DNA of 45,202 nt from Bacteroidota bacterium (lineage in GTDB: Bacteria > Bacteroidota > Bacteroidia > Chitinophagales > Chitinophagaceae), in contig JAEVZP010000147.1 in NCBI GenBank assembly GCA_023392185.1, positions 1 to 45,202 of the forward strand, given 5' to 3'. The position numbers and the translations under genes are program-made. The notes under the pieces are model-generated. The model was not told the DNA's origin, did no database searches, and saw nothing but the letters and a program-made list of their open reading frames with translations. Shown piece after piece: positions 1-43,359 of the stretch (its first letter is position 1; every line of letters starts with the position of its first letter).

Positions 1-373
1 AGTCCAGTGCATCGGTGGTATTGGCAATATCGCCGACGGCCGCCACACCGGCGTCATACATATTCCGGAAGGCGGCCTGCCGGGCAGCTGTTTTCTCGGT
101 TTCGGTCGCGTCGCGGCGGGTCATTACCTGCTGGAGAAACACCATCAGTCCCGTGCCTTCCGGAATGGCCCCTTTCATGTGGGACAGTTCCAGATGACAA
201 TGGGCATTCACAAAGCCCGGACATAAAATGCCTTTTTCAAACACACGATCCGGAACTTTTGGGGAACCGGGCGGGTGAATGGCGATTACAACCCCGGCTT
301 CGTCGGTCTCCAGCAAACTGCCTTCGGGTACAAACCGGTAGCCGTCGTGAATCTGGGGCGCGGAAAAAATCAT
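1..373 (-). CDS. amidohydrolase-superfamily protein (deaminase-like), N-terminal part; continues beyond the left edge
   Basis: Absent from the ORF track because it runs off the window. A reverse-strand ATG at 371-373 opens MIFSAPQIHDGYRFVPEGSLLETDEAGVVIAIHPPGSPKVPDRVFEKGILCPGFVNAHCHLELSHMKG... GFVNAHCHLE is the HxH metal-binding motif of amidohydrolases. There is no stop codon down to position 1. Confidence 0.7.
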   Translation of the reverse strand, partial: MIFSAPQIHDGYRFVPEGSLLETDEAGVVIAIHPPGSPKVPDRVFEKGILCPGFVNAHCHLELSHMKGAIPEGTGLMVFLQQVMTRRDATETEKTAARQAAFRNMYDAGVAAVGDIANTTDALD

Positions 374-2359: not shown

Positions 2360-2393
2360 AACCGGTCTTCTGCAAGCTTGCAGAAGACCGGTT
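2360..2393 (-). terminator. perfect 34-nt palindrome, terminator downstream of the YceI-like gene
   Basis: The sequence is AACCGGTCTTCTGCAAGCTTGCAGAAGACCGGTT. On the minus strand it is followed by TTTTTGG. Confidence 0.75.
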
Positions 2394-2406: not shown

Positions 2407-2426
2407 TTTCCGGAAATTTCCGGAAA
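2407..2426. repeat. TTTCCGGAAATTTCCGGAAA: perfect 20-nt palindromic dimer of the window-wide TTCCGGAA motif
   Basis: Read directly from the sequence. It ends 4 nt from the stop codon of the YceI-like gene (2431-2433). Confidence 0.95.
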
Positions 2427-3221: not shown

Positions 3222-4736
3222 ATGCGTCGGATTCCGGGTGTGATATGGTTGCTAATCCTGATCAGTGCGCTGGTGTTTACGGCCGGTTCGCTGCGCGTCT
3301 TCGATCATTTTCCCGACTCGGTGCACCGGTGGCGGCAAAGTGATTGCGCGGCCTACACCAAAACATTTTACCGAAACAATACCGGCCTGCTCACGCCCGG
3401 CACCTTCAATCTGGCAGGACAAAATGGGCGGGTGGCAAGCGAATTTCCCATTATCTATTACCTCAGTGCACAGATTGAAAAAGGGGTGGGCGAGCATTAT
3501 TGGGTCAACCGTAGTATCAATTTCGGGTTGTATTTTCTGGGTCTGTGGGCCTTGCTGGCCACTTTCACCCGCTATCTGTTTCGGGGGAAACGCTTTGCGG
3601 CCTTCTGCGTGGTGGCCTTGCTGGCGGCTTCGCCTTTTTATTACTACTATGCCCTTAATTTTCTGCCCAATGTTCCGGCTATCAGCCTGAGCTTTATCGG
3701 GCTTTATTTTTTGTTTGCTTTCCGGGAAAAGAGACGCTGGCTTTCGCTCCTGGGCGGCACTCTTGCGTTCACGCTGGCCTTGCTTCTGAAGCCTACCGAC
3801 GGCGGCATACTCCTGGGCGCTTTTGGATTGATGTCGGCCACACTGTTTTTGAAAAAGCCGCTTACGGGCCAGGAAAATATGCGCTTCTGGGTCGGACTGG
3901 TGGCTGCAACTGTTGTTGTGCTGCTGGTCAATTATATGTGGATCCGGTATGTGAATGCTTATAATGATCTCAATGGCAACCACCAGAACCTGATGTCTAT
4001 TTATCCGATCTGGGACATGGAGCCGGATGTGCGCAATTATACTTTCAAGCGCATCCTGACCGAATGGCGGCTTGATTTTCAGCATGTACTGGTCCTGGCG
4101 ACCCTCCCTTTTCTGCTGTTGATTTATGTGTGGAAATGGCGCGCTTTGGAACCGCGTTTTAAGTGGCTTACTTTCTATGTTGCGCTGCTGACGATGCTCT
4201 ACAGCGTATTTTGGTTTAAAGCCTATACCGACCACGATTATTATCAGCTGCCGCTGGTCCTGCCCATGGTTTTGGGGGCGGCCACGGTGATAGAATACCT
4301 GTCGCGCGCGGCCGGCAGGCAGCGATTGCCGATTGGCAGGAGCCTGCTGGCGACCGGCCTGGGTGCGTTGGTAGTCATCTCTGTATTCTACAACGGGAAA
4401 GCGCAGCAACGCCGCTATGCCGATCCGGGTCATATCCACCCGGTTCCGGAACTCTATGAGGCAGAGGCGTATCTGAACTCGATCGGTGTAACGCCGGACA
4501 AAATCGTTGTGTGTGCGCCCGACCGCAGCCCCAATATTTCCCTCAATGCCATCAACCGCTATGGCTATACTGAAGAGTTCAACGGTCCTTTTTACAACAT
4601 CAACACTTTTAAAGAAAGAGGCGCCTCCTATCTGATTCTGCTCGATACGGCTTACCTGTCCGATCCGCTTTATATACCGCATATTCAGAAAAAAGCCGGG
4701 CAATATGGCCGGGTCATGGTATTTGATATCCGCTAA
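3222..4736 (+). CDS. polytopic integral membrane protein, possibly a GT-C-type glycosyltransferase
   Basis: The 504-aa ORF starts at an ATG. It has about 10 or more hydrophobic helices followed by a soluble C-terminal domain. The family assignment rests on architecture only; I recognise no diagnostic motif. Confidence 0.6.
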   Translation: MRRIPGVIWLLILISALVFTAGSLRVFDHFPDSVHRWRQSDCAAYTKTFYRNNTGLLTPGTFNLAGQNGRVASEFPIIYYLSAQIEKGVGEHYWVNRSINFGLYFLGLWALLATFTRYLFRGKRFAAFCVVALLAASPFYYYYALNFLPNVPAISLSFIGLYFLFAFREKRRWLSLLGGTLAFTLALLLKPTDGGILLGAFGLMSATLFLKKPLTGQENMRFWVGLVAATVVVLLVNYMWIRYVNAYNDLNGNHQNLMSIYPIWDMEPDVRNYTFKRILTEWRLDFQHVLVLATLPFLLLIYVWKWRALEPRFKWLTFYVALLTMLYSVFWFKAYTDHDYYQLPLVLPMVLGAATVIEYLSRAAGRQRLPIGRSLLATGLGALVVISVFYNGKAQQRRYADPGHIHPVPELYEAEAYLNSIGVTPDKIVVCAPDRSPNISLNAINRYGYTEEFNGPFYNINTFKERGASYLILLDTAYLSDPLYIPHIQKKAGQYGRVMVFDIR

Positions 4737-4815
4737 GATTAGATCCGGTGTTGCTTTCTATTTCCGGAAAATTGTGCTTCCGGAAGGAACTTTGACGCTT
4801 TCCCAAGAGTAACCC

Positions 4816-6033: not shown

Positions 6034-6741
6034 ATGGATTATCGTGAAATTGTGGCCGTTACCGGAATCGGCGGTCTGTACCAACTGGTCACCTCCAAAG
6101 GCGACGGCGCTATCGTGCGCTCGCTGGCCGACGGCAAAACTGTTTTCGTTTCGGCGCGCAAGCATCAGGTGACGCCCATCGAAAGCATTGAAATCTATAC
6201 GAACGGCGACAATGTGCGCCTCCATGAGGTGCTGCAAATGATGAAAGACGCCGAAGCCGAAACGCCGCTTCCGGAAACCAAAGACCCGAAGGTGGTTGCA
6301 GCGTATTTCAGCACCGTTTTTCCGGAATATGACCGCGACCGCGTGTATCCTTCCGACCTCAAAAAGCTGGTGAAGTGGTATGGCCTGCTCAAAACCGCCG
6401 ATCTGCTCGACTTCAGTCGTTATCAGCAGGCGGAAAATGCAGGAGATCCTATGGAAACAGAAGCACCGATGCCGCTGGAAGGACAGGTGCAGATCAAAGA
6501 GCATAACAAAGACCACCACGTAGATGACGAAGCTGCTTCGCAATCTGTTGAGGGTGGAAATCCCGACGTGAAGAAGGCCCCGGCTAAAAAAGCAGCCACC
6601 AAAAAAGCAACGGAAACGGATACCGACAGCGAAGCAGCACCGAAGAAAACACGCGCAAAGAAAACCGCAGAGCCGGCTGCTGAAGGCGAAGAAGCCCCGA
6701 AAAAAACAAGCCGGAAAAAGAAAACCGACGAAGAAGCCTAA
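6034..6741 (+). CDS. DUF5606-like protein with a lysine/alanine-rich histone-H1-like C-terminal tail
   Basis: The N-terminus MDYREIVAVTGIGGLYQLVTSKGDGAIVRSLADGKTVFVSARKHQVTPIESIEIY matches the Bacteroidota DUF5606 pattern as I remember it. The C-terminal ~70 aa are KKAPAKKAATKKAT...KKTSRKKKT. An intrinsic terminator follows. Confidence 0.7.
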   Translation: MDYREIVAVTGIGGLYQLVTSKGDGAIVRSLADGKTVFVSARKHQVTPIESIEIYTNGDNVRLHEVLQMMKDAEAETPLPETKDPKVVAAYFSTVFPEYDRDRVYPSDLKKLVKWYGLLKTADLLDFSRYQQAENAGDPMETEAPMPLEGQVQIKEHNKDHHVDDEAASQSVEGGNPDVKKAPAKKAATKKATETDTDSEAAPKKTRAKKTAEPAAEGEEAPKKTSRKKKTDEEA

Positions 6742-6812: not shown

Positions 6813-6879
6813 AGCTCCGGTAAGTCGTGTTCCGGGCTACATTCCGATTAAAAAAGCTTTTTTCCGGAAGTATAATGCC

Positions 6880-7184: not shown

Positions 7185-7385
7185 ATGAAACCGCAGTCCC
7201 TCAAAAAAGCGCTTATTACCCTGCTGGCGGCACTGCTTGTTGGCGCAGCGGTATACGGTCTGGCCCGCCTCCTGGGCCGCACGGCATCTGATGCCGAAAT
7301 GTTTGGGCTGATTGCCGTTGCCGTTGGCCTGCTCGAAAAGCCGGTCCAGTGGATCCTGCGCCACCTCGGTGTGGTAAAGAAATAA
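7185..7385 (+). CDS. small hypothetical membrane protein (66 aa, two predicted TM helices)
   Basis: The ORF starts at an ATG. Two hydrophobic segments are visible (LITLLAALLVGAAVYGLA and FGLIAVAVGLL). No homology is recognised. Confidence 0.4.
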   Translation: MKPQSLKKALITLLAALLVGAAVYGLARLLGRTASDAEMFGLIAVAVGLLEKPVQWILRHLGVVKK

Positions 7386-7406
7386 GGGTGTTTTTCCGGA
7401 AACCGG

Positions 7407-8096
7407 CTAGCCGTTGCGATGGTCGCTTTCCACCACGCCGTCGCGGATGCGGACAATGCGGCGCGTACGCGCGGCGATGTCTTCTTCGTGGGTCACCAGC
7501 ACCACGGTATTTCCGGAATGGTGGATGGCTTCAAAAAGATCCATGATCTCGATACTGGTTTTGGTATCCAGATTGCCGGTGGGTTCGTCGGCCAGGATGA
7601 GCGCCGGATTGTTGATGAGGGCACGGGCAATGGCCACGCGCTGACTTTGTCCGCCGGAAAGCTCGTTGGGCCGGTGGTGCGCCCGCTCGGCGAGGCCTAC
7701 TTTGGCCAAGCCTTCGCGCGCCCGCGCTTCGCGCTCTTTAGCGCCTACGCCGGCGTAGAGCAAGGGAACAGCCACGTTTTCCCAGGCAGAAAGGCGGGGC
7801 AGCAGGTTGAACTGCTGGAATACAAAGCCGATTTCGCGGTTGCGAATAGTCGCCAGCTCGTCGTCGTCGAGGGTTTTTACCGGCTGCCCGTTGAGCACAT
7901 AAGTTCCGGCATCCGCTGTGTCGAGGCAACCGATGATGTTCATCAGCGTGCTTTTTCCGGAACCGGAAGGCCCCATCAGCGCCACATATTCGCCCCGGTC
8001 GATGCTCAGGTCGATGCCTTTGAGCACCTGCAGGGCCTGATTACCCATGAAATAGGCTTTTTGGATACCGGAAAGAGAAATAACAGCGGGCGTCAT
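7407..8096 (-). CDS. ABC transporter ATP-binding protein (LolD/MacB/FtsE-like)
   Basis: Walker A is GPSGSGKST, the ABC signature is LSGGQSQR, and Walker B is [12 protein letters not shown]. The protein is 229 aa and starts at an ATG. No permease gene lies adjacent. Confidence 0.9.
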
Positions 8097-8351
8097 CGTT
8101 GGGGTAAAGTTTCAGAAAGCGGGGTACAAAAACCAAATTTCCCGCCCCTGAATTCCGGAAATTCCAATGTGCTTCACAATTGCCCGATACCCGGTGCTTT
8201 GTTCCTTTTGCAGAAAAGGATTTGAGCGAATAAACGGTTCTTTTCTTCCTCCAAAAAGAAAAAGGAGCGCCTTTTCAGGGGCACTCCTTTCGGACCGGAG
8301 GAAGGATGAAATTTCCGGAAAACAGCCTTTCCTTTCCGGAAAAAAACGACC

Positions 8352-11323: not shown

Positions 11324-11356
11324 AAAAGGGATGCACCTTGTTGGTACATCCCTTTT
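11324..11356 (-). terminator. hairpin downstream of the T9SS-cargo gene
   Basis: The stem is AAAAGGGATG / CATCCCTTTT with a 13-nt loop. The minus-strand 3' side is T-rich. Confidence 0.5.
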
Positions 11357-11365
11357 GGAAAGATT

Positions 11366-11385
11366 TTTCCGGAAATTTCCGGAAT
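11366..11385. repeat. TTTCCGGAAATTTCCGGAAT: dimer of the TTCCGGAA motif
   Basis: Read directly from the sequence. It lies 13-14 nt beyond the stop codon of the T9SS-cargo gene. Confidence 0.95.
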
Positions 11386-13919: not shown

Positions 13920-13998
13920 TGTTTGAAAAAGAAAAAAGGTGTTGAAAGCAGGCGACAGGGCGGCTGCGATTGAATTTTGTAAGAAAATTTCCGGAAAC

Positions 13999-18771: not shown

Positions 18772-18791
18772 TTTCCGGAAATTTCCGGAAA
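18772..18791. repeat. TTTCCGGAAATTTCCGGAAA: perfect 20-nt palindromic dimer of the TTCCGGAA motif
   Basis: Read directly from the sequence. It lies 34-35 nt beyond the stop codon of the 78-aa ORF. Confidence 0.95.
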
Positions 18792-19979: not shown

Positions 19980-21809
19980 ATGGATCGTAATCAGATCATC
20001 GGGTTTTCGCTGTTGGTGGCCCTGCTCGCTGCGTATGTAGTGTGGAACAGCAAAAACCAAAAAGAGTATCAGGAGCAAAAGCAAAAACAGGCAACCGCCG
20101 ACTCGATTGCTTATGCCAAAGCCAACCCCAAAGCTGCGGCAACGCCCCTGCCTGCCGACACGCTCGCAGCCCTCTCCGGCGCTACGGCTGCCGACAGCAA
20201 CCTGCCCGCGGCGCTGCGGCGCGGGGCCGGTGAAGAAATCGTGCTCGAAAACAACGATGTGGCCCTCACCTTCTCGACCCGGGGTGCCCGCCTCGTCAAC
20301 GCCCGGCTGAAGAATTATAAAACCTTCCGGGGAGAGCCGCTCGACCTTTTCGCCGGAGATAACAATGGTATCGCCTTTACCCTGCCGGTTGACAATGGCC
20401 GCAGTACGTCCGATCTGCTCTTTACACCGGTGGCGGCCGCCGGTGCCGATGGAGCCAAAGCCATCGACTTTGCTGCCGACCTGGGCAATGGCAAGCGCAT
20501 CGACCTGATTTATTCGCTTCCTGCCGAAAACGGCATGGCGCAGCTGACCGTGCGCACCACCGGCATGAACGCCAACATGCTGCCCTTTACCTGGAATGTA
20601 GCCGGTCGGCAAACCGAGCGTGATATTACCGTAGAGCGCCACAATGCGCAGGTCTACCACCGCTATAAAGACGGCGACAACGACTACTTTACCATCTCGG
20701 AGGCAAAAGAAGAAAGCTACAAAGAGAACCTTCAGTGGATCGGTTTCCGGAAATTTTACTTCAGCACGGCCCTCCTGAGCGACGACGGCCTCAGCCGGGG
20801 CGTCCTGAAAGCAGTGCCTTCTACCGGTGATTCTGCTGCTACCGTAGCCACCGTGACCGCTAAAGCAGAACTGCCCCTGCGCAACGGGGAAGGCTCCCTG
20901 CGCTGGTATATCGGCCCTAACCAATACAAGGTGCTGAAAAGCTATAAAGCAGGTCTCGACGAAATGGTTCCGCTGGGATACGGACCGTTCTTTTTCGTCA
21001 AATACATCAATAAAGGGCTGATCATTCCGGTATTCGATTTCCTGCACGACAATGTGGGCATCATCAATATGGGTGTCATCATCATGTTGCTGACCCTGTT
21101 CATCCGCCTCATCCTGTCGTTCTTTACCTATAAAAGTTATCTGTCTTCGGCCAGGATGCGCGTGCTGAAGCCCGAACTCGACGAGCTGCGCGAGAAGTAC
21201 AAAGACAATCAGCAGGAGCTGGGCATGGAGCAGATGAAGATGTACCGCACGGCCGGGGTGAACCCACTGGGCGGTTGCCTGCCCATGCTGCTGCAGATTC
21301 CCATTCTGTTTGCCATGTACTACTTCTTCCCCTCGGCCATCGAGCTGCGGCAGAAGTCGTTCCTGTGGGCCAACGACCTGAGTACCTATGACTCGGTGCT
21401 GGATTTGCCGTTCAACATTCCGTTCTACGGCGATCACGTTTCGCTGTTTACCATCCTGATGACCTTGTCTTCGCTGGCGCTGGCGCTTTACAGCCGCAAC
21501 ATGACGCCGCAGGATCCCAACAACCCGCTGCTGAAATGGATGCCTTTCATCTTCCCTTTCCTGCTTCTCGGGGTGTTCAACAAGATGGCGGCTGCCCTCA
21601 CGTTCTACTACTTTTTCTCCAACGTGGTGTCGCTCATCCAGCAGTTCGTGATTCAAAAACTGTTTATCAACGAAGCGAAGATCCACGCCAAGATTCGCGA
21701 GAACCGCAGCAAGCCGCAGCAGCAAAGCAAATGGGCACAGCGCCTGGCCGAGATGCAGCAGGCACAGGCAGAGCGCTCCAAGCAAATGCCGCGCCGCAAA
21801 GACTCGTAA
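19980..21809 (+). CDS. yidC: membrane protein insertase YidC
   Basis: The ORF 19881..21809 is trimmed to the ATG at 19980 (MDRNQIIGFSLLVALLAAYVVW). It has a large periplasmic P1 domain. The conserved C-terminal 5-TM core includes LKPELDELREKYKDNQQELGMEQMKMYRTAGVNPLGGCLPMLLQIPI. Confidence 0.92.
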   Translation: MDRNQIIGFSLLVALLAAYVVWNSKNQKEYQEQKQKQATADSIAYAKANPKAAATPLPADTLAALSGATAADSNLPAALRRGAGEEIVLENNDVALTFSTRGARLVNARLKNYKTFRGEPLDLFAGDNNGIAFTLPVDNGRSTSDLLFTPVAAAGADGAKAIDFAADLGNGKRIDLIYSLPAENGMAQLTVRTTGMNANMLPFTWNVAGRQTERDITVERHNAQVYHRYKDGDNDYFTISEAKEESYKENLQWIGFRKFYFSTALLSDDGLSRGVLKAVPSTGDSAATVATVTAKAELPLRNGEGSLRWYIGPNQYKVLKSYKAGLDEMVPLGYGPFFFVKYINKGLIIPVFDFLHDNVGIINMGVIIMLLTLFIRLILSFFTYKSYLSSARMRVLKPELDELREKYKDNQQELGMEQMKMYRTAGVNPLGGCLPMLLQIPILFAMYYFFPSAIELRQKSFLWANDLSTYDSVLDLPFNIPFYGDHVSLFTILMTLSSLALALYSRNMTPQDPNNPLLKWMPFIFPFLLLGVFNKMAAALTFYYFFSNVVSLIQQFVIQKLFINEAKIHAKIRENRSKPQQQSKWAQRLAEMQQAQAERSKQMPRRKDS

Positions 21810-22874: not shown

Positions 22875-23189
22875 AACCAACACATTTTGTTTATATCCAA
22901 AAAGAAAAAAAGATGCCAGCTTTTCCGGAAATCGGACCTTTTACAAACGACGCAGGCGGCCCGGAGCCTTGTGCCAAAAAGGTTTTCAGGGAAAAAGCTG
23001 CTTGAAAGGGCCCTGCATCCTGGCAGCCTCAAAAAGGGAATTATTAACGGATTCTTGCCGGTTGGCCCCTCCAGAGCAAAGAATACAGCCTGCGTCGTTT
23101 GGACCCTCTGCTGCCCGGTTTGCCTTTTTGGAGCGCCCTCCCCGGGCGGCGCTCCAACACCCCTGGGGCACATACCTTTGATTCTCCCT

Positions 23190-24912: not shown

Positions 24913-24943
24913 GATTTCCGGAAATTATTGTTTTAAAATCCCC

Positions 24944-28130: not shown

Positions 28131-29498
28131 TTACTTTCCAGCAGTACGCGGTGTTTGAGGGGGAGCACCCACCAGATTTACCGGGGCGGGATACCCTTTT
28201 CCGGAAAGCGCGGCAATGGGAACAAACACTTCTTTTTGACCTTTCACAGTACGGGTGACTTTACCTTTTGGGTTGGCATTTGGCTTCTCCGCGCCGGTGG
28301 TCGTATCGGCTACAGAAGTTTCTACCGCGTCGGCAATAGCGTTGCCCTGCGCGTCGCGGTTCATTTCCGTCAGGGCGGCTACCAGCGCACTTTTTTCAGC
28401 CGCCGGAAGGGCGTCATAGGAAAGATTATACACCTGAAGCACTTTATTGGCATACGCCGTCGTGTTGGTGCCGCGTTCATACACATCGCGATATACTGTG
28501 AGGCCACCATTACCGGCTACAATCGTCTCGTACCGAAGCTCAATCGGAATGGGTTTTGGAAGTTTCTCTTCGGTGGTTTTTCCTTTCTGCGTACCATAAT
28601 TCTGAATCGCGTCCGGCGTCAGGGAGGAAGCGCCGGAAATTTGCGCCAGCGTAGTGGCAAAATCCTGAATCCCTTCGTTGGTCAGACCCACACAGCCGTG
28701 CGAGGCAAAAGAGCCCAGTTTCGCCGGTTGCTTGCCGCCATGAATGAGGCTGGGCAGGCCAATCGGAATTTTAATCGGACCAAGTGGATTGTCTTTGCTG
28801 CCTGCTTCCACGGTTTTGCCGGGGGCAAACTTGCCTTTTACCCAAGGCTCGTCGGGTGGCGTCCAGGTAGGATTGAAAATGATTTTCTCGGCGCGGCGCA
28901 TACCGGCCGGTAAGGGAAATTCCGGATATCCGATGCCCACCGAATAGCTCTTAAGCAACCGACCGTCCTGAAAAACATCCATACGGTAGGCGGGCGCGTT
29001 TACTACAACGCGGGTATCCGTCGGAACCGAATTGGGCTGGGTGGGCAACAGACCTTCAAGGTCGCCGCCGGCGTAGCGCCGCGCCACGTATTGCCGCAGT
29101 TGCAGCGCTTTTTCTTCGCCCAGAATGCTGTTGAGTTGCTTTTCCGCGTTTTGAGACGCCGCACGGGCCGAGCCCAGATAAGCCGTGCCGTCTCCTTTTT
29201 CGTCCAGATCGGAAACCGATTTTTGGGCGGCAGTTTTCAGCTTCTCCACCTGATCGGCAGAAAGAGCCAGCTGGTTTTTGAGGTCTTCGCCAAAGCCTTC
29301 TTCATAAAAAAGCGCGTCCAGCACCGGCAGGGTCAGTCCGGGGGCTACGGGTGGGGCAACCGCAGCGGTATTTCCGGAAACGGTGGTAGTATCTACCACC
29401 GTTGTGCTTTGTTCAACAGTATTGGTGCGGGTCGTCTCCGAGCAGGCCGTCAGTCCGAGGGCTAGAACGAGGGCGAGCGGAAAAAGTCTTTTCTTCAT
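28131..29498 (-). CDS. L,D-transpeptidase (YkuD) family lipoprotein
   Basis: An internal ATG at 29496-29498 gives a classic lipobox, MKKRLFPLALVLALGLTAC. The catalytic region is SLIHGGKQPAKLGSFASHGCVGL. The ORF stays open in frame upstream to 29963 (see findings). Confidence 0.8.
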   Translation of the reverse strand: MKKRLFPLALVLALGLTACSETTRTNTVEQSTTVVDTTTVSGNTAAVAPPVAPGLTLPVLDALFYEEGFGEDLKNQLALSADQVEKLKTAAQKSVSDLDEKGDGTAYLGSARAASQNAEKQLNSILGEEKALQLRQYVARRYAGGDLEGLLPTQPNSVPTDTRVVVNAPAYRMDVFQDGRLLKSYSVGIGYPEFPLPAGMRRAEKIIFNPTWTPPDEPWVKGKFAPGKTVEAGSKDNPLGPIKIPIGLPSLIHGGKQPAKLGSFASHGCVGLTNEGIQDFATTLAQISGASSLTPDAIQNYGTQKGKTTEEKLPKPIPIELRYETIVAGNGGLTVYRDVYERGTNTTAYANKVLQVYNLSYDALPAAEKSALVAALTEMNRDAQGNAIADAVETSVADTTTGAEKPNANPKGKVTRTVKGQKEVFVPIAALSGKGYPAPVNLVGAPPQTPRTAGK

Positions 29499-30153
29499 AA
29501 TGCCAAGCAGGCTATAAAGAATCGTTCCCGACCTGTTTTTCGGAAAATCTCTTTCCTTTTTCCGGAACTGAAAGTAACCTCTTCCAATCCAAAACCATAC
29601 GGGTGCAAACAAAGCGAGCAGGTGAAGCACCGTTATCGCAGACAGGGTTTCATCCACCAGGAATCTACCCAGAAAAAGCGACGCCGCAAGTGGCAAAAAA
29701 GCAAAGGCAAGGGCAGACCGAAATGCGCTGGCGCGAACTGCCGGCAGGCCAACGAGGAACAGGGTTGCGGAACACAGTGCAAGCAGCAGGGCAGTGCCGG
29801 AAAGAATGGTTTCGGTAAAGCCTGGCATATAGCAGTTACGCCGAGAGTCAGCTACAAAAACAGCCTGTAAAAGCGCCGTTAGCACAAGGGTTGTGAGCAC
29901 CGAAAAGCCGACAATGCGCCCGAAGGTTTTCCAGAGAAAGGTTTTCAGATTCATTATTTGCAAAAGGATTCAGAGCGTTTTTAAGATGCGTTGAAAAGCG
30001 GAATCATCGGGCCCCAGTGCATCGTTCAGGGCGGAGATTTCCGGAAATTTCCTGCTTAAAGTGCCCCTTTAAGTATTGGCAAAAAGAGAGACGCCCAAAT
30101 TGGGCGTCTCTGCGAGCGCTGTATCTTTTTTTGCCTTCGCTTTTGATATTCAT

Positions 30154-30272: not shown

Positions 30273-31019
30273 CTACAAATTCATCCCACCGTCCACACTC
30301 AGGACCTGCCCGGTGATGTAAGTGCTCATATCCGAGGCGAGGAAGAGTGCCGCGTTGGCGATATCTTCCGGTTTGCCGGCCCGGCCCAGCGGAATTTTCT
30401 CCGACCATTTCTCCGATCCGCCTTCTTTCAGAAACTGCGTCATATCGGTTTCGATGAGGCCGGGTGCAATGGCGTTGCAGCGAATGCCGCGCGAGCCGAT
30501 TTCGGCAGCAATGCTTTTGGTAAAACCAATAATGCCCGCCTTCGACGCTGCATAAGCGGCTTGTCCGGCGTTGCCTTTGATGCCCACGATCGAACTCATA
30601 TTGATAATGCTGCCGGCGCGTGCTTTCATCATCGGGCGAATGACTTGTTTGGTCAGGTTATACACCGAGCGCAGGTTGGCGGCCATTACCTCGTCCCATT
30701 GTTCGGCAGAAAGGCGCAGCAAAAGATTGTCGCGGGAGATGCCGGCATTGTTCACGCAGATATCAATCGTTCCAAAGTCGGCAGCGACTTCTGCGGCCAG
30801 TTTCTCGGCGGCGGCATAGTCGCCTGCGTCGCTTTTGTAAGCTTTGGCCCTGATGCCCTGGCTGGCCAGTGCGTCGGCCAGGTTCCGGGCTTTCTCGTCG
30901 CTCGACACATACGTGAAGGCCACATTTGCGCCGTGTTCGGCAAAGGTTTTTGCAATGGCTTCGCCGATACCGCGGGAGCCGCCCGTGATCAGGGCTGTTT
31001 TTCCGGAAAGAAGTTTCAT
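30273..31019 (-). CDS. fabG: 3-oxoacyl-[ACP] reductase FabG (SDR family)
   Basis: The ORF is trimmed to the ATG at 31017-31019 (MKLLSGKTALITGGSRGIGEAIA). SDR motifs are TGxxxGIG, NNAG and YAASKAG (YxxxK). Confidence 0.88.
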   Translation of the reverse strand: MKLLSGKTALITGGSRGIGEAIAKTFAEHGANVAFTYVSSDEKARNLADALASQGIRAKAYKSDAGDYAAAEKLAAEVAADFGTIDICVNNAGISRDNLLLRLSAEQWDEVMAANLRSVYNLTKQVIRPMMKARAGSIINMSSIVGIKGNAGQAAYAASKAGIIGFTKSIAAEIGSRGIRCNAIAPGLIETDMTQFLKEGGSEKWSEKIPLGRAGKPEDIANAALFLASDMSTYITGQVLSVDGGMNL

Positions 31020-31281
31020 AAGGCTAAGGTAGGGTGGGGGCAAAATTTTTTTGATTTTGGAAAATGTTTTCCGTCGTAACATTGCTTCATCATTTCCTAT
31101 GGTGACGGATTTGGCAAAGCAATGAGCCGCGCGAAAAACTTTTTCTCCGCACCCCCACTGTATTTTCCGGAAATCACACCCTGACGCCTTCCCGTTTTTC
31201 CACTGAGGCAGGCCTGAAGCGAACGTGTCGTTCCCGATTTTCCCTTTCGTTACATTTTTATTTTACCGACGTCATTTTTTC

Positions 31282-33894
31282 ATGCCGTACGATTACGCAA
31301 AGCTCAGCGATATGAATGCTGAGGCGCTGGCGCAGATAGCCCGCGAAATGGAGGTTGCCAATTTTGAAAACCTCGAAAAACAAACCCTGATTTACAAGAT
31401 TCTCGATCAGCAGGCCGTGCGCCCGGCGTCTAAATCTTCTTTCTCTAAAGCAACAGAAGTAGTGATTACTGAAAACGCACCGGAAGAAGCGCCCGTAAAA
31501 AAACGCCGGGGCCGCCCTGCCAAAGCCAAGGCTGCGGAAGAAACGCCCGCACCGCTTGACGTGCCGCCGGCTATGGACGCAGCCATTCCACCCGTCGATC
31601 CGGCTGAGCCGGTCATTATCACCGATGATGCCGCCGAAGCCGGGCTGGTAAAAAAACGCCGCACCAAGGCTGCGAAGCCAAAGGCGAAGGCCGAACCGGA
31701 AGCGGCAGCAGAAGCAACACCGGTGACGGAACAGGCAGAAGCCGTTCCCGGGAAAATTCCGGAAAAAACCGAAGAAAAAGTAGCCGAAAAGCCCCGCCGG
31801 GGGAAGGCCGCCCGTGCCAAAGCCCAAACTCCGGAAAAAGAAACAACCGAAGTACCTGCAGCCTCGGCTAAAGAAAGTGCGGCAAAAGAAACGCCCGCAA
31901 AAGGCGCATCGGCAACAGAAGCGCCGGCTAAAGGGGCGGTAGATCGCGCGGTGGCCGCCGACTGGGCCGAAGTATCACGCGAGCAGGAGCGGGGCAATAT
32001 GCAACATGCCGACGAAGCCGCCGGCAACGCACCTGCCGCCGCTGCATCCGAAGAAAAGCCGCAAACGCCAACTCCGGCGCCGCCTGCCCGGCCCCAGGTG
32101 CGTCAGCAGGAACAAACACCGCGTCCGGCAGCCGAGAATGCACCCCGCGACCCGCGCCCGGCACGGGAGCAGCACCCACCGCGCGAACAACAACAGCGGC
32201 CGCAGCAGCAATCCCAGCAACCGCGTCCGCAAGGCCCTGCCGACCGTACGCAGCGTCCGGAAGGCGGCGCACCGCCTTCGCAGCATCCGCACCACCGCGA
32301 GCAGCAGCAACGCACCCCGCGCCCGCAGCATCCACAACAACAAAACGGCGGTATCCCTCAACAGCAGCGCGATACCGGCATTCCCCGTGAAGGCCTGCCG
32401 CACCCGCAAAGCCAACAGCGGGAGTTTCCCCAGCAACGCCCCGACAACCGGGTGCCCCGTGACAGTGCGCCGCAACAATCGCAACAACGCGAGTTCGCCC
32501 CCCGCGAACTGCGCCCGCATTCCGATCAACAGCGTCCGCAGCAACAACAGCAGGGCGAAGCGCGTCCTCAAAATCACTCGCAGGACCACCGGCAACAGCA
32601 ACCCCGCGAGAATCGCCCGGCTGCTCCGCAATCGCAACAGCATCCTGCGTCCAATCAGGGCCAGCAGGCACCGCCGCAACAGCAACAGCAGCAACGCGAG
32701 TTCACACCGCGCGAACCACGCCAGCAGGACGCTCCGCAGCGCCCGCAACAGCAGCCACCGCGCACCCCACCTGTGGAGTTCGACGGTATTGTGAAAGCCG
32801 AAGGTGTTGTGGAGTTGATGCCCGACGGCTACGGCTTTCTGCGCTCCTCCGACTATAATTATCTGTCTTCCCCCGACGATGTTTTCCTGGAGCCGAAGCA
32901 AATCAAATCGCTGGGTCTTAAAGCCGGGGATACCGTAGTAGGACAGTGCCGTCCGCCCCGCGAAGGCGAGAAATATTTCACGCTCACGAAGCTGGAAACG
33001 ATCAACGGCAAAACGCCGGAGGAAATGCGCGACCGCGTGCCGTTTGAATACCTGACGCCGCTGAACCCGTATCAAAAGCTCGACCTGAGTAGCGGCATGT
33101 CTTCCTACAGCACCCGCATTATGGACCTTTTCGCACCGATCGGCAAAGGCCAGCGTGGACTCATCGTGGCGCAGCCCAAAACCGGTAAGACCATGCTGCT
33201 GAAGGAAGTGGCCAATGCTATTGCCCGCAACCACCCGGAAGTCTATCTTATGGTTGTGCTGATCGACGAACGCCCGGAAGAAGTAACCGACATGCAGCGC
33301 TCCGTTCGTGCCGAGGTGATCGCTTCTACCTTCGACGAGCCGGCCGACAAGCACGTCAAGGTTTCGACCATGGCGCTGCAAAAAGCCAAGCGCTTGGCCG
33401 AGGTTGGTCATGATGTCGTGATTCTGCTGGATTCCATTACCCGCCTCGCCCGCGCCCACAACACCGTTGCGCCGGGTTCCGGAAAAGTGCTTTCCGGTGG
33501 TGTGGAAGCCACAGCGATGCAAAAGCCCAAGCAGTTTTTCGGTGCAGCCCGTAAAATCGAAAATGGTGGCTCGCTCACCATTCTGGCCACGGCGCTGATT
33601 GATACCGGCTCGCGCATGGACGAGGTGATCTTTGAAGAATTTAAAGGCACCGGCAACATGGAACTGGCCCTCGACCGCAAACTGGCCAACCGCCGCATCT
33701 TCCCGGCAATTGACTTGGTAGGCTCTTCCACACGCCGCGACGACCTGCTTCTGAATGAGGCCATTCAAAACAAAATGTGGATTCTGCGCAAGCACATTGC
33801 TGATATGAACCCCGACGAAGCCATGAACTTCCTGCTTCAGCAAATGAAAGGCACCAAAAGCAACGAAGAGTTTCTGGCGACAATGAACCGCTAA
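31282..33894 (+). CDS. rho: transcription termination factor Rho with ~450-aa low-complexity N-terminal insertion
   Basis: The ATG at 31282 opens a Rho_N-like start, [25 protein letters not shown]. The CSD-like RNA-binding domain is [21 protein letters not shown]. Walker A is AQPKTGKT. The RecA-type core runs to the C-terminus. An intrinsic terminator follows. Confidence 0.93.
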
Positions 33895-33927
33895 AAGTGT
33901 TTTTTGGAAAGAAGTTTCCGGAAAAAG

Positions 33928-33965
33928 GAGGGCTGCCTTTGCAAAGACAGCCCTCTTTGTTTTGG
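33928..33965 (+). terminator. intrinsic terminator of rho
   Basis: The stem is GAGGGCTGCCTTTG / CAAAGACAGCCCTC with one mismatch. It is followed by TTTGTTTTGG. Confidence 0.7.
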
Positions 33966-34548: not shown

Positions 34549-35601
34549 TTATTCCCCCAAAATGCGCAATTGCTTTTGAACGCTGCTCAGGTGAATCAGC
34601 TGAAACAAATCGGCGACCTCAGAAGGCTCCAGGCCGTGCAGCAGTGCCCATTCGCTGCGGGTACGCAAAATCTCGCGCCAGCGCTCCGGCTGAAAAGCCG
34701 TCATGCCCTGTGTTTTTTTGATCTCGCCGATTTGCCGCGACAGGTCAAAGCGGCGGCCCAGCAGGTGCACCATCTCAGCGTCAATGGCGTCCATTTGACT
34801 GCGCAGGGCCGAGAGGCGTTCGTCGCCTTCGCAAGGGGTGCGTCGCACCACCAGCCGCGACAAAATCTGCCGCAGCGTTTCGGGGGTCACCTGCTGTGCG
34901 GCATCGCTCAGTGCCTTATCAGGATCGGCGTGGGTTTCAATCATCAGCCCGTCGAAGCCGAGGTCAAGCGCCTTTTGCGAAACCGGCTCAATGCCCGGGC
35001 GATTTCCGGAAATATGGCTTGGGTCGCAGATGATTTTGAGGTCAGGGCGGCGGCGGCGCAGCTCGATTGGAACGGCCCACGACGGCGGATTGCGAAACGG
35101 CGAAGCAGCGCCATAACCCGGAAAGCCGCGGTGAATGGCCCAGACGTCGGCAAAGCCGGCGCGCTCCATGCGCTCGATGCCGCCCAGCCACAGATCGGCA
35201 TCGGGAATCACCGGGTTTTTAACCAAAACCTGCACGGGTGCGCCGCGCAAAGCATCCGCCAGTTGTTGCACCGAAAAAGGATTGACCGTTGTGCGTGCGC
35301 CAATCCAAACGGCATCCACACCGGCTTTGAGGGCGGCTTCCACATGCCCGGCGTCGGCCACTTCTACCGCTACCGGAAATCCGTACTGTTCTCGTACTTC
35401 TGTCAGCCAGGAAAGGGCTTCCGGGCCAACTCCTTCAAAAGCACCTGGCCGGGTGCGCGGCTTCCAGACACCCGCCCGGAAGAAGCGCAGGGGCAGGTCT
35501 TCCATTCCGGCTGCCGTCGCCAGCACCTGTGCGCGCGATTCGGCGCTACACGGGCCGGCAATAAGGGTGAAATCGGGCGCTGCGGAATCAATAGGGTCCA
35601 T
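34549..35601 (-). CDS. bifunctional 3-deoxy-7-phosphoheptulonate synthase / chorismate mutase
   Basis: The ATG is at 35599-35601. The DAHPS type I-beta body includes LIAGPCSAESRAQVL and FRAGVWKPRTRPGAFEGVG. The C-terminal chorismate mutase type II segment is LRSQMDAIDAEMVHLLGRRFDLSRQIGEIKK. Confidence 0.85.
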   Translation of the reverse strand: MDPIDSAAPDFTLIAGPCSAESRAQVLATAAGMEDLPLRFFRAGVWKPRTRPGAFEGVGPEALSWLTEVREQYGFPVAVEVADAGHVEAALKAGVDAVWIGARTTVNPFSVQQLADALRGAPVQVLVKNPVIPDADLWLGGIERMERAGFADVWAIHRGFPGYGAASPFRNPPSWAVPIELRRRRPDLKIICDPSHISGNRPGIEPVSQKALDLGFDGLMIETHADPDKALSDAAQQVTPETLRQILSRLVVRRTPCEGDERLSALRSQMDAIDAEMVHLLGRRFDLSRQIGEIKKTQGMTAFQPERWREILRTRSEWALLHGLEPSEVADLFQLIHLSSVQKQLRILGE

Positions 35602-35765: not shown

Positions 35766-36860
35766 ATGCGCTATTACATTCTTGCCGGCGAAGCCAGCGG
35801 CGACCTGCACGGCGCAGCCCTGATTCGCGCCCTCAAAGTTGCTGATCCGGAGGCCGAATTCCGGGCGTGGGGCGGCGATCGTATGGAAGCAGCCGGAGCG
35901 CCGCTCGTGAAGCATTACCGCGATCTCGCTTTTATGGGTTTTGTGGAAGTGGTGAAACACCTCGGCACCATTCTGCGCAACATCCGGCTGGCCAAGGAAG
36001 ACATTACCGCCTACCGCCCCGATGTGTTGATTCTGATCGACTATCCGGGTTTTAATATGCGCATTGCCAAATGGGCTAAGGAAAGGGGAATCCGGGTGGT
36101 GTATTATATCTCGCCGCAGATCTGGGCCTGGAAGGAAGGCCGGGTCAAAGCCTTGCGCCGCGATGTAGATCAAATGCTGGTGATTCTTCCTTTTGAAAAG
36201 GATTTTTATAAAAAACACGATATGGATGTGGCTTATGTGGGCCACCCCCTGATTGGCGCGATAGCGGCGCAAAAGCAAAAACCGATAGACGATTCGCTGC
36301 GGTTCGAAAAGCCGGTAATTGCGCTTTTGCCCGGCTCGCGCGCGCAGGAAATCCGCCAGAAGCTGCCCCTTATGCTGTCGGTAGTAAGGCACTTTCCCCA
36401 CCACCAGTTTGTAGTGGCCGCTGCTCCGGCACAGCCGCTTTCGCTCTACGAAGAGTTGGTAGGCGACCTGCCGGTGGAGATTATTTCCGGAAAAACCTAT
36501 GAGATTTTGCAGGTAGCAACCGCAGCGCTGGTAACGAGCGGCACGGCCACACTGGAAACCGCGCTTTTTGGCGTACCGCAAATTGTGTGTTATCGCGGCA
36601 ACCCCATTTCCTACCAGTTGGCAAAGCGCCTGATCAAGGTGAAATACATCTCGCTGGTAAACCTGATTCTGGATGCGCCGGTGGTTCCGGAACTGATTCA
36701 GGATGCGCTCAACGAAACCAATCTCACCGGGGCGCTTCAAAAACTAACAGATTCCCATTCCACCGAACGAGCCCAGATGCTGGCGCAATACCAAAAGCTG
36801 TGGAACCTTTTGGGCAGCACCGATGCTTCGGCAGAAGCAGCGCGGCACATTGTAGCGTGA
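35766..36860 (+). CDS. lpxB: lipid-A-disaccharide synthase
   Basis: The ORF is trimmed to the ATG at 35766 (MRYYILAGEASGDLHGAALIRALK, the canonical LpxB N-terminus). Also present are LLPGSR and TSGTATLETALFGVPQIV. Confidence 0.9.
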   Translation: MRYYILAGEASGDLHGAALIRALKVADPEAEFRAWGGDRMEAAGAPLVKHYRDLAFMGFVEVVKHLGTILRNIRLAKEDITAYRPDVLILIDYPGFNMRIAKWAKERGIRVVYYISPQIWAWKEGRVKALRRDVDQMLVILPFEKDFYKKHDMDVAYVGHPLIGAIAAQKQKPIDDSLRFEKPVIALLPGSRAQEIRQKLPLMLSVVRHFPHHQFVVAAAPAQPLSLYEELVGDLPVEIISGKTYEILQVATAALVTSGTATLETALFGVPQIVCYRGNPISYQLAKRLIKVKYISLVNLILDAPVVPELIQDALNETNLTGALQKLTDSHSTERAQMLAQYQKLWNLLGSTDASAEAARHIVA

Positions 36861-37789: not shown

Positions 37790-37898
37790 AGAAAATTTCC
37801 GGAAAATTCTTCCGCGACGCGGTTTGGCGTGTCTGCACCTGAAATTTGCAAAGAGCGGGCCGAAGGCTGTTTTGGCCTTTCTACCGTAAATTTCGCTT

Positions 37899-43269: not shown

Positions 43270-43359
43270 ATTATGTCCGAAACAACATAATCCGATTTTC
43301 CGGAAATCCGCTCCAAAAGTCCGCAGTTTCCCCTCTGAAAAATTTATATCCCAATAGTC

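What the first reader, a model, noticed from the sequence alone, without database searches (positions are those of the whole stretch)
7383..7409. The motif sits immediately downstream of stop codons for at least 12 genes
I measured the gap between each stop codon and the nearest TTCCGGAA. The gaps are: TonB receptor 2 nt, YceI-like 5 nt, lolD-like 5 nt, rsmI 7 nt, small 66-aa ORF 8 nt, carbonic anhydrase 10 nt, yidC 12 nt, T9SS cargo 14 nt, recJ 20 nt, rho 21 nt, GT-C-like membrane protein 25 nt and the 78-aa ORF 35 nt. At 7386-7406 the entire 21-nt spacer between two convergent stop codons is essentially one motif copy. For yidC and rho the motif lies between the stop codon and the intrinsic terminator hairpin. 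For the YceI-like, T9SS-cargo and recJ genes it likewise precedes the hairpin on the transcribed strand. This recurrent order of stop, motif, hairpin suggests a role in 3'-end formation, in termination-factor loading, or in insulating adjacent transcription units.
Basis: seen in the sequence. Interest (0 to 1): 0.7.

Follow-up and report, generated by a model that had tools for sequence, protein, structure and literature searches.

The report
Hyperabundant TTCCGGAA palindrome, Chitinophagaceae lineage
The eight-letter palindrome TTCCGGAA occurs about once per 800 bases, inside and between genes, in one small clade of Chitinophagaceae bacteria, much like the long-puzzling HIP1 word of cyanobacteria; its position just after stop codons is real but is only one aspect of this genome-wide spread.

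Summary
All 12 stop-to-motif gaps reproduce. In the window, 10 of 19 intergenic motif clusters lie within 25 nt after a stop, against 11% expected (p~1e-5). The bias replicates in non-orthologous spacers of six related assemblies (8/28 against 12%, p=0.015).

The motif is not a dedicated 3'-end element. TTCCGGAA occurs 57 times in 45 kb (1.3 expected), and 33 copies lie inside genes in all three frames. There they fill 34-60% of the peptide sites that can encode the word synonymously (32 observed against 2.8 expected).

The same density is found in seven related assemblies. A sister lineage (RecJ 81% identical) has almost none, although it keeps the same genes and terminators. Another relative carries a different palindrome, TGCCGGCA.

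Copies persist longer than neutral 8-mers, both in genes and after stops, while their flanks diverge. No conserved flanks, mobile-element features or Rfam match were found.

Best reading: a lineage-specific highly iterated palindrome, closest to cyanobacterial HIP1 and to DNA uptake sequences. It is probably read as duplex DNA by a symmetric protein. The post-stop pile-up is most likely secondary, through tolerance or co-option. The protein that reads the motif was not identified.

The parts
2408..2425 (.). Tandem pair TTCCGGAA-AT-TTCCGGAA, 5 and 15 nt after the YceI stop (2431-2433, minus strand), upstream of the terminator
2360..2393 (-). YceI intrinsic terminator hairpin plus T-run, downstream of the pair
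4762..4785 (.). Two copies 16 nt apart, 25 and 41 nt after the GT-C (PMT_2) stop; predicted to pair with each other in RNA
6862..6869 (.). Intergenic copy 120 nt after the DUF5606 stop, beyond that gene's terminator (6778-6807)
7394..7401 (.). Copy filling the 21-nt convergent spacer between the 66/79-aa ORF stop (+8) and the LolD-like stop (+5); the orthologous spacer in L340 also holds one copy
8153..8160 (.). Intergenic copy 56 nt upstream of the LolD-like start, after the carbonic anhydrase terminator
8313..8341 (.). Two copies 21 nt apart, 10 and 31 nt after the carbonic anhydrase stop; L340 has a tandem pair at the same 3' end
8260..8291 (-). Carbonic anhydrase terminator hairpin
11367..11384 (.). 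Tandem pair 14 and 24 nt after the T9SS-cargo stop; a pair is kept in L338 and L340 and a single copy in L341, despite diverged flanks
11324..11356 (-). T9SS-cargo terminator hairpin
13989..13996 (.). Copy 2 nt after the TonB-dependent receptor stop; present in L338, L340 (two copies) and L341, absent in motif-poor L342
18187..18194 (.). Copy in the divergent spacer between the 365-aa ORF and the HMA gene
18773..18790 (.). Tandem pair 35 nt after the stop of the 78-aa ORF (18826-19062, minus strand); conserved in L338
21822..21829 (.). Copy 12 nt after the YidC stop, before the terminator; not conserved in L002 or L338
21853..21891 (+). YidC terminator hairpin
22923..22930 (.). Copy in the divergent spacer between YkuD and GH3 (GH3 start reset to about 23196 from its orthologues)
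24916..24923 (.). Copy 20 nt after the RecJ stop, before the hairpin; absent in L002 and L006
24866..24912 (-). Long hairpin after the RecJ copy
30039..30046 (.). Intergenic copy 75 nt upstream of the YkuD2 start, after the SDR terminator
31165..31172 (.). Copy in the divergent spacer between SDR and Rho
33916..33923 (.). Copy 21 nt after the Rho stop, abutting the terminator; L215 has a copy at +16 at a non-aligned position
33927..33955 (+). Rho terminator hairpin
37797..37804 (.). Copy 7 nt after the RsmI stop; kept in L216 (+6) and mutated to TTTCGGAA in L215
39754..39761 (.). Intergenic copy 67 nt after the RecD stop
43298..43305 (.). Intergenic copy 33 nt upstream of recB; the homology block with L215 restarts exactly here
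63..165 (.). Two intragenic copies (63-70, 158-165) in the partial amidohydrolase gene
4444..4451 (.). Intragenic copy, GT-C gene, frame 1
6269..6327 (.). Two intragenic copies (6269, 6320) in the DUF5606 gene
7511..7962 (.). Two intragenic copies (7511, 7955) in the LolD-like gene; both conserved in L340
9378..9909 (.). Two intragenic copies (9378, 9902) in SulP; one conserved in L340
15254..15261 (.). Intragenic copy in the TonB receptor gene; conserved in L340, TTTCGGAA in L338
17263..17270 (.). Intragenic copy in the 365-aa ORF; conserved in L338 and L341
19157..19164 (.). Copy inside an unverified 117-aa ORF; may be intergenic
20745..20752 (.). Intragenic copy in YidC (G-F-R-K); conserved in L002 and L338
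23687..24464 (.). Four intragenic copies in GH3 (23687, 23828, 24080, 24457), made by synonymous codon choice at xSGI and FPE peptides
28199..29567 (.). Three intragenic copies in YkuD2 (28199, 29372, 29560)
31001..31008 (.). Intragenic copy in the SDR gene
31757..33484 (.). Two intragenic copies in rho (31757, 33477)
35004..35011 (.). Intragenic copy in the DAHP synthase/chorismate mutase gene
36485..36692 (.). Two intragenic copies in lpxB (36485, 36685)
37120..37127 (.). Intragenic copy in rsmI
38639..38646 (.). Intragenic copy in recD
40151..42551 (.). Three intragenic copies in recC (40151, 40648, 42544)
44051..44945 (.). Two intragenic copies in recB (44051, 44938)

Best explanation
TTCCGGAA, with extended consensus (A/T)TTTCCGGAAA(A/T), is a lineage-specific highly iterated palindrome. 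It is a genome-wide duplex-DNA word, not a gene-end signal.

Shown:
- It is about 40-fold over-represented overall.
- It occurs in genes in all three frames and in spacers, with no conserved flanks.
- Copies arise by point substitution. In genes this is mostly synonymous codon choice at FR[KN], [FLIV]PE and xSG-x peptides, 34-60% of which carry the word.
- Copies persist longer than neutral 8-mers.
- The trait is confined to a young clade. A sister lineage lacks it, and another relative carries a different CCGG-centred palindrome.

Inferred:
- By analogy with HIP1 and with uptake sequences, the word most likely serves as a 'self' mark for DNA-level transactions: methylation-linked repair or recombination, or DNA uptake.
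- Biased fixation then pushes it towards saturation wherever sequence constraint allows.
- Spacer DNA carries 2-5 times the genic density. The stretch just after the stop codon is the least constrained part of these compact spacers, so copies collect there, and some may have been co-opted locally. The post-stop pattern is therefore secondary.
For: Abundance:
- 57 copies against 1.34 expected.
- In genes, 32 observed against 2.8 expected given the protein sequences and the genome's own codon usage; in spacers, 24 against 0.24-0.32.

Motif shape:
- Only positions -2/-1 and +1/+2 show a flank preference (T/A); nothing further out is conserved.
- One-mismatch variants are 3-9 times enriched at the two outer positions and at background in the CCGG core.

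Same density in related assemblies (copies per sequence length):
- L002 18 per 13.9 kb; L006 13 per 14.5 kb; L215 32 per 20.4 kb; L216 30 per 23.2 kb; L338 26 per 22.8 kb; L340 24 per 18.8 kb; L341 8 per 10.7 kb.

Absence or replacement in relatives:
- The sister MAG ERZ26165376 has 4 copies in 44.5 kb (L005, L342).
- L009 has TGCCGGCA 18 times in genes against 1.75 expected.
- 70 other Bacteroidota loci hold 76 copies in 1.38 Mb.

Origin and persistence of copies:
- In orthologous codon alignments the motif-poor relative encodes the same peptides with other codons.
- Conservation of window copies: 4 of 5 against 19% for control 8-mers with L340 (p=0.005), and 5 of 11 against 21% with GCA_002336725.1. 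Many copies are also specific to one lineage.

Literature:
- HIP1 shares the 8-bp palindrome, 15-300-fold excess, coding and non-coding spread, above-background conservation and alternate palindromes in related genomes (PMC5861425, PMC4390886).
- HIP1 was recently tied to methylation-dependent transformation (bioRxiv 10.1101/2024.09.10.611283 and 10.64898/2026.06.24.733823).
Against: - No reader protein, methyltransferase or competence determinant was identified. Whole genomes of the motif-bearing MAGs could not be reached with these tools.
- A simple tolerance model does not predict the gene-specific retention of post-stop copies (11 of 16 against 2 of 17).
- The same model predicts depletion near start codons, which was not significant.
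- Only about 200 kb from about seven assemblies was sampled.
- The analogy to HIP1 rests on sequence statistics. HIP1's own mechanism is unsettled.
Confidence: 0.6

Rival explanations
1. One reading: the motif is a dedicated transcription-unit-end element. It would aid 3'-end formation, load a termination factor, or act as a protein roadblock or insulator between adjacent units.
For: - The stop-side excess is seen in the window (p~1e-5) and in independent spacers (p=0.015).
- Six genes show the order stop, motif, hairpin.
- Presence after particular stops is shared across genomes (Fisher p=0.001), even where flanks diverged or the copy moved.
- All five closely spaced pairs in the window sit after stops.
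Against: - 58% of copies are inside genes and are conserved as well as the post-stop ones.
- The position relative to the hairpin varies: before it, at its apex, in its stem or after it.
- A single copy cannot fold on its own and has no U-tract requirement.
- The YidC and RecJ copies are not conserved.
- The sister lineage keeps the same operons and terminators without the motif.
- About 60% of gene ends in the window lack a copy.
Confidence: 0.15
2. A true DNA uptake sequence: a receptor of a natural-competence system prefers DNA that carries the word, and uptake plus recombination drives its accumulation, as for Neisseria DUS and Pasteurellaceae USS.
For: - Density is about 1 per 0.8 kb, with 42% of copies in the 13% of DNA that is intergenic.
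- Copies pile up at gene 3' ends and near terminators. Closely spaced copies can form hairpins.
- Related lineages carry different words, like dialects.
- One-mismatch variants are also enriched.
- USS and DUS behave this way (PMC1852404, PMC3630211).
Against: - Known uptake sequences are asymmetric; this word is a perfect palindrome.
- The motif usually lies outside terminator stems.
- I found no paper in the held library reporting sequence-specific uptake in Bacteroidota.
- No competence receptor was identified.
Confidence: 0.2
3. A functionless by-product: a methyltransferase acting on TCCGGA or CCGG, together with a biased mismatch or very-short-patch repair, converts near-matches into the word. 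Copies would accumulate by mutation pressure alone.
For: - The core contains a 6-bp type II-like site, TCCGGA (from my own knowledge of restriction sites, not tested here).
- Near-matches at outer positions are enriched and core variants are not.
- Turnover is high, with many gains specific to one lineage.
- C-to-T at the first C of CCGG recurs among decayed orthologous copies: three cases.
- Elhai proposed such a model for HIP1 (PMC4390886).
Against: - Recognition extends to 10-12 bp, longer than usual methyltransferase sites.
- From my own knowledge, known repair biases give excesses far smaller than the roughly 12- to 100-fold seen here; this was not tested.
- Some gains need 3-5 substitutions.
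- No methyltransferase or Vsr gene was seen in the roughly 200 kb examined.
Confidence: 0.2
4. Binding sites of an abundant nucleoid or topology protein (REP-like, gyrase-like) that organises supercoiling domains, favoured downstream of transcription units.
For: - The palindromic 10-12 bp site and the 10-bp phasing of abutting copies.
- The bias towards gene 3' ends.
- A chromosome-structure role was proposed for HIP1 (PMC5861425).
Against: No candidate protein was found. The trait is gained and lost between very close lineages, which is unusual for core nucleoid architecture. The majority of copies are intragenic.
Confidence: 0.1
5. A Chi-like recombination hotspot read by the RecBCD enzyme that this window encodes.
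For: The window carries recD-recC-recB. Chi sites are over-represented octamers (PMC4390886 introduction). A Chi-like effect has been suggested for HIP1.
Against: From my own knowledge, known Chi sites are asymmetric and strand-biased, with much lower excess. A palindrome cannot carry orientation. The motif-poor sister lineage also has RecC (P0124).
Confidence: 0.05
6. A miniature mobile element or an expanding microsatellite.
For: Abutting 10-bp units occur, and their copy number differs between genomes, one against two copies.
Against: - There is no conserved sequence beyond 2 nt of flank.
- Most copies are single and sit in-frame in conserved proteins.
- Orthologous comparisons show point substitutions, not insertions.
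Confidence: 0.02

Closest known systems
HIP1 (GCGATCGC) and alternate highly iterated palindromes of cyanobacteria
   Same: Both are 8-bp perfect palindromes present at about one copy per kb or per gene. Both have an excess of tens-fold, occur in coding DNA (all frames) and non-coding DNA, and lack conserved flanks. Symmetric extension to 10 bp occurs in part of the copies. Core positions are the least tolerant of change. Conservation is above control 8-mers. Related genomes lack the word or carry a different palindrome.
   Different: The sequence and phylum differ (Bacteroidota, Chitinophagaceae). The distribution is much narrower and younger: present at RecJ identity of 87% or more, absent at 81%. 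There is a replicated excess just after stop codons, which the HIP1 study did not examine (its non-coding segments began 10 nt after the stop). The link to a cognate methyltransferase, central to HIP1, is untested here.
DNA uptake sequences (Neisseria DUS, Pasteurellaceae USS)
   Same: Density of about 1 per kb, presence in genes and spacers, concentration at gene 3' ends and near terminators, closely spaced copies able to form hairpins, lineage 'dialects', and accumulation by point substitution.
   Different: DUS and USS are asymmetric and mostly form the terminator stem itself. Here the word is a palindrome and usually lies between the stop and the hairpin. Competence and a receptor are unknown for this lineage.
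REP/BIME extragenic palindromes, and the 18-nt palindromic repeat of Caldithrix abyssi (PMC5317091)
   Same: Palindromic repeats that favour positions downstream of genes and convergent spacers.
   Different: Those are 18-40 nt, strictly extragenic and far fewer in number. Here the word is 8-12 nt and 58% of copies are intragenic.
Chi sites
   Same: An over-represented octamer in a genome that encodes RecBCD.
   Different: Chi is asymmetric, orientation-dependent and only a few-fold over-represented.

Membership tests
Highly iterated palindrome (HIP-type) | Short perfect palindrome, about 8 bp | tested here: met
   TTCCGGAA is its own reverse complement. 30 of 57 copies extend to TTTCCGGAAA.
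Highly iterated palindrome (HIP-type) | Excess of at least about 15-fold over a composition-aware expectation, at about one copy per kb | tested here: met
   57 against 1.34. In genes 32 against 2.8 given protein sequence and codon usage; in spacers 24 against about 0.3.
Highly iterated palindrome (HIP-type) | Dispersed in coding DNA (all frames) and non-coding DNA, not part of a longer repeat | tested here: met
   Frames 0/1/2 hold 6/9/17 copies. There is no flank conservation beyond 2 nt.
Highly iterated palindrome (HIP-type) | A genome-wide property of a lineage, with relatives that lack it or carry an alternate palindrome | tested here: met
   Seven related assemblies have 0.75-1.6 copies per kb. 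The sister MAG has 4 per 44.5 kb. L009 carries TGCCGGCA. Only sampled loci were examined, not whole genomes.
Highly iterated palindrome (HIP-type) | Copies conserved above control oligomers | tested here: met
   4 of 5 against 19% (p=0.005) with L340, and 5 of 11 against 21% (p=0.06) with GCA_002336725.1. The samples are small.
Highly iterated palindrome (HIP-type) | Cognate (orphan) DNA methyltransferase recognising an internal site | not testable with these tools
   No DNA methyltransferase gene was seen in the roughly 200 kb fetched.
HIP1 proper | Sequence GCGATCGC in cyanobacteria | tested here: not met
   Different word. The host is Chitinophagaceae.
DNA uptake sequence (DUS/USS) | Asymmetric 9-12 nt word found in both orientations | tested here: not met
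   The word is a perfect palindrome.
DNA uptake sequence (DUS/USS) | Inverted pairs form terminator stems downstream of genes | tested here: inconclusive
   Five close pairs lie after stops and can pair with each other. Most copies lie outside the main hairpin; some in relatives sit at the apex or in the stem.
DNA uptake sequence (DUS/USS) | Host is naturally competent with sequence-biased uptake | not testable with these tools
   The organisms are uncultured MAGs. I found no relevant report in the held library.
REP/BIME | Strictly extragenic, 20-40 nt imperfect palindrome forming a stable stem-loop | tested here: not met
   33 of 57 copies are intragenic. Symmetric extension is mostly 0-2 bp.
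   Most copies are intragenic. The position relative to the hairpin varies.
   Retained in 11 of 16 comparisons (TonB, T9SS cargo, carbonic anhydrase, LolD, Rho, RsmI, 78-aa). Lost at YidC and RecJ. Absent throughout the sister lineage.
Chi | Asymmetric, orientation-biased site for RecBCD or AddAB | tested here: not met
   The site is a palindrome, although RecBCD is present.
Known RNA family | Match to an Rfam model | tested here: not met
   No Rfam hit at gathering thresholds and no tRNA in the window.

The most novel reading that the evidence does not exclude
A recently evolved, protein-read 'self-DNA tag' system in Chitinophagaceae whose specificity has switched between sister lineages (TTCCGGAA, TGCCGGCA, none). 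Its copies just after stop codons would be positively maintained because the bound reader also acts on transcription-unit ends, for example as a roadblock that stops RNA polymerase once the ribosome has left. This would be the first HIP-type system outside cyanobacteria. Motif-rich and motif-poor sister genomes are close enough to find the responsible gene by simple gene-content comparison.
Probability: 0.2. Interest if true: 0.8.

Novelty: new variant of a known kind. Interest (0 to 1): 0.62.

Why it matters
Hyperabundant palindromes such as HIP1 have been an open problem for about 30 years. One reason is that HIP1 is nearly universal in its phylum, so few informative contrasts exist. Here the same kind of signature appears in another phylum and is very young. 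Genomes with RecJ 87-100% identical carry it, one at 81% does not, and one at 73% carries a different word. That contrast makes the question 'what writes or reads such words' directly testable by comparing gene content and methylomes of a handful of MAGs.

There are practical consequences too. The word distorts codon choice and even some amino acids in about one gene-sized interval per copy. It could serve as a lineage marker in metagenomes. It should be considered when designing DNA for transformation of these bacteria.

Tried and rejected
1. Scan of metagenome contigs with the abutting 20-mer. Most hits were contigs of about 40% GC, poor in ORFs, with GGAAATTTCC-type arrays from gutless-worm samples, probably host DNA. 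They were uninformative, and the few contigs above 50% GC were too short for gene-aware tests.

2. Scan of genome contigs with a RecJ alignment. The close named relatives were missed, so it served only as a phylum-wide baseline.

3. Extending the source contig. The exact RecJ look-up returned only a 2-kb Logan contig.

4. Mobile-element or longer-repeat idea. Rejected because the flanks are not conserved and perfect symmetric extension is 0-2 bp. The one exception is a hairpin in L002.

5. RNA-family or tRNA explanation. No Rfam hit and no tRNA.

6. Literature search for TTCCGGAA as a genomic motif. Only primers and unrelated sites turned up.

7. Viral contigs. One genuine phage fragment (L302) carries 17 dispersed copies, but its host is unknown. 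The other dense hits were repeats within coding sequence.

8. Search for a cognate methyltransferase. Not feasible without whole genomes, and none appears in the fetched loci.

9. Depletion near start codons, as a test of the tolerance model. Not significant.
Full report
**The observation.** TTCCGGAA occurs 57 times in the 45.2-kb window; dinucleotide-preserving shuffles give 1.34 on average and never more than 6. I corrected the GH3 and YidC starts from orthologue lengths. The window holds 31 genes of a Bacteroidota organism: a T9SS cargo protein, a TonB-dependent receptor, a long Rho, RecJ, YidC and RecD-RecC-RecB.

So do the 21-nt convergent spacer at 7386-7406 and the order stop, motif, terminator hairpin for YceI, carbonic anhydrase, T9SS cargo, YidC, RecJ and Rho.

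**Is the stop-side position more than chance?** Of the 24 intergenic copies (19 clusters), 10 clusters lie within 25 nt after a stop, while 11.4% of intergenic positions do (p=1.3e-5). None lies within 25 nt of a start. The window was chosen after the pattern had been seen, so I repeated the test on spacers that are not orthologous to the window. These came from six related assemblies (L002, L006, L215 beyond the window, L216, L338, L340, L341). There 8 of 28 clusters lie within 25 nt (12% expected, p=0.015), 7 of 28 within 15 nt (p=0.004) and 13 of 28 within 50 nt (p=0.004). There was no effect at starts. The bias is real, about 2.5-4.5-fold.

**The motif is mostly not at gene ends.** Thirty-three of the 57 copies are inside genes, in all three frames. 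Given the protein sequences and the genome's own codon usage, 2.8 intragenic copies are expected and 32 are seen. Of the peptide contexts that can encode the word synonymously, 6 of 10 F-R-[KN], 9 of 15 [FLIV]-P-E and 17 of 50 x-S-G-x sites carry it. In spacers 24 copies are seen against about 0.3 expected.

Flank preference is limited to T/A at one or two positions on each side, giving (A/T)TTTCCGGAAA(A/T). Nothing further out is conserved, and perfect symmetric extension is 0-2 bp. This rules out a mobile element or a longer repeat. One-mismatch variants are 3-9 times enriched at the two outer positions and at background in the CCGG core. There is no Rfam match and no tRNA in the window.

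**Phylogenetic spread.** RecJ homologues place the window in uncultured Chitinophagaceae. Loci fetched through RecJ, RecC and the TonB receptor show the following densities:

| Locus | Relation or source | TTCCGGAA copies per sequence |
|---|---|---|
| L215 | genes 93-95% nt identical to the window | 32 / 20.4 kb |
| L338 | related assembly | 26 / 22.8 kb |
| L340 | related assembly | 24 / 18.8 kb |
| L341 | related assembly | 8 / 10.7 kb |
| L002 | GCA_002336725.1 | 18 / 13.9 kb |
| L216 | GCA_002336725.1 | 30 / 23.2 kb |
| L006 | GCA_036732905.1 | 13 / 14.5 kb |
| L005 + L342 | next relative, MAG ERZ26165376 (RecJ 81%, TonB receptor 75%) | 4 / 44.5 kb |
| L010 | RecJ 74% | 0 / 21.7 kb |
| 70 other Bacteroidota RecJ loci | phylum baseline | 76 / 1.38 Mb |

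L009 (RecJ 73%) has few TTCCGGAA copies but carries TGCCGGCA 20 times in 21.7 kb. Eighteen of these are in genes, against 1.75 expected from codon usage. It also has CGCCGGCG 6 times against 1.4. None of the 70 baseline loci has a comparable GC-containing palindrome. The trait is therefore young and clade-specific, and a relative carries a different CCGG-centred palindrome.

**How copies arise and persist.** In codon alignments the motif-poor relative encodes the same peptides with other codons, for example TCA GGC or TCC GGT where the window has TCC GGA. A few copies involve amino-acid changes.

Between the window and GCA_002336725.1 (79% nt identity in the compared genes), 5 intragenic copies are shared, 6 are specific to the window and 9 are specific to the other genome. 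Control 8-mers are conserved 21% of the time. The partner of an unshared copy differs at one to five positions. Against L340 (77% nt identity), 4 of 5 window copies are conserved against 19% for controls (p=0.005). Copies are thus both gained continually and kept longer than neutral sequence, as reported for HIP1 (PMC5861425).

**Post-stop copies across genomes.**
- The copy after the TonB receptor stop is present in L338, L340 and L341.
- The T9SS-cargo pair is kept in L338 and L340, and one copy remains in L341. The proteins are only 46% identical between the window and L338, and the 3' region has indels and compensatory stem changes.
- The carbonic anhydrase end keeps two copies in a different arrangement, with a different terminator.
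- The LolD/66-aa convergent spacer keeps its single copy.
- Rho has a copy at +21 in the window and at +16 in L215, at non-aligned positions.
- The RsmI copy is kept in L216 and decayed to TTTCGGAA in L215.

Overall, where the window has a post-stop copy the relative has one in 11 of 16 comparisons. Where the window has none, the relative has one in 2 of 17 (Fisher p=0.001; the comparisons are not phylogenetically independent).

Against a fixed role: the YidC and RecJ copies are not shared. In relatives the motif also sits at a hairpin apex, inside a stem or after the terminator. The motif-poor sister has the same operons with plain terminators.

**Interpretation.** The features are an 8-bp perfect palindrome with symmetric extension, an excess of tens-fold, spread through genes and spacers, above-background conservation combined with rapid gain, and clade-specific presence with an alternate palindrome in a relative. 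Together they match the highly iterated palindromes of cyanobacteria (PMC4390886, PMC5861425).

The density, the over-representation in spacers, the preference for gene 3' ends and the lineage 'dialects' also match DNA uptake sequences (PMC1852404, PMC3630211). Recent work links HIP1 itself to methylation-dependent transformation.

I therefore read TTCCGGAA as a HIP-type genomic signature, read as duplex DNA by a symmetric protein and driven towards saturation by biased fixation. This last step is inference; no reader protein was found. The post-stop concentration is most simply explained by where such a word is tolerated in compact spacers, possibly with local co-option. I cannot exclude a real function at transcription-unit ends.

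**Rivals.** They are scored individually in the rival list:
- a dedicated 3'-end element (0.15);
- a strict uptake sequence (0.2);
- a functionless by-product of a methyltransferase plus repair bias (0.2);
- a nucleoid or topology site (0.1);
- a Chi-like site for the RecBCD encoded in the window (0.05);
- a mobile element (0.02).

**Limits.** About 200 kb from about seven assemblies was examined, not whole genomes. The organisms are uncultured. No methylation, transcript or binding data exist. Several counts are small. I found no description of this motif in the held literature, which is not proof that none exists.

Noticed in passing
L009 (ENA ERZ24825753:k141_409041), whole 21.7-kb locus: A relative with RecJ 73% identical carries a different hyperabundant palindrome, TGCCGGCA: 20 copies, 18 of them in genes against 1.75 expected. 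CGCCGGCG is also raised (6 against 1.4). The window itself has TGCCGGCA 8 times against 2.2 expected.
   Followed up: partly
window 37899-45201: A recD-recC-recB operon (Exonuc_V_gamma, RecC_C and UvrD-helicase domains), so the organism has a RecBCD-type enzyme.
   Followed up: partly
L302 (IMGVR_UViG_3300021387_001762), 13.2 kb: A phage fragment (Phage_min_cap2 hit, GC 46%) carries 17 dispersed TTCCGGAA copies without the T/A flank preference. Its host is unknown.
   Followed up: partly
L013-L131 (metagenome contigs, mostly Ga0209562, Ga0209679, Ga0066192): The abutting 20-mer is common in contigs of about 40% GC, poor in ORFs, with GGAAATTTCC-type arrays from gutless-worm metagenomes. These look like eukaryotic host repeats and are unrelated to the bacterial motif.
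   Followed up: partly
window 33895-34548, compared with L215 1444-1936: Between strains with 93-95% identical genes the spacers are replaced wholesale. L215 has a DUF3861 gene between rho and the DAHP synthase gene; the window has 654 nt without it. Motif copies lie at or near several homology breakpoints, and one block restarts exactly at copy 43298.
   Followed up: partly
L215 about 5170 (RsmI 3' end); window about 37992 (recD); L338 TonB receptor gene: Three decayed orthologous copies read TTTCGGAA, that is C-to-T at the first C of CCGG. This may hint at 5-methylcytosine deamination, but the numbers are too small to judge.
   Followed up: no
L215 14477-14494 and L216 17597-17614: An abutting tandem pair lies inside the coding sequence of a VitK2_biosynth-family gene and is conserved between two genomes.
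   Followed up: no
L002 13441-13692: A 9-nt tandem array (GTTGATAGA)n of about 15 units lies upstream of yidC and was called as an 83-aa ORF.
   Followed up: no
L002 3337-3376: One copy sits at the apex of a perfect 16-bp-extended hairpin, 51 nt after a DDE transposase gene. It may be part of an insertion-sequence end or a terminator.
   Followed up: no
L155 (MAG MFD05537.bin.3.259, CAWDEH010000007.1): A distant Chitinophagaceae MAG (RecJ 55% identical, GC 47%) has 7 TTCCGGAA copies in 21.7 kb against 0.8 expected, without the T/A flanks. This could be mild independent enrichment or chance.
   Followed up: no
window 31225-33894: Rho is 889 aa long; its RNA-binding and ATPase domains begin only at about residue 526, so it has a long N-terminal extension.
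   Followed up: no
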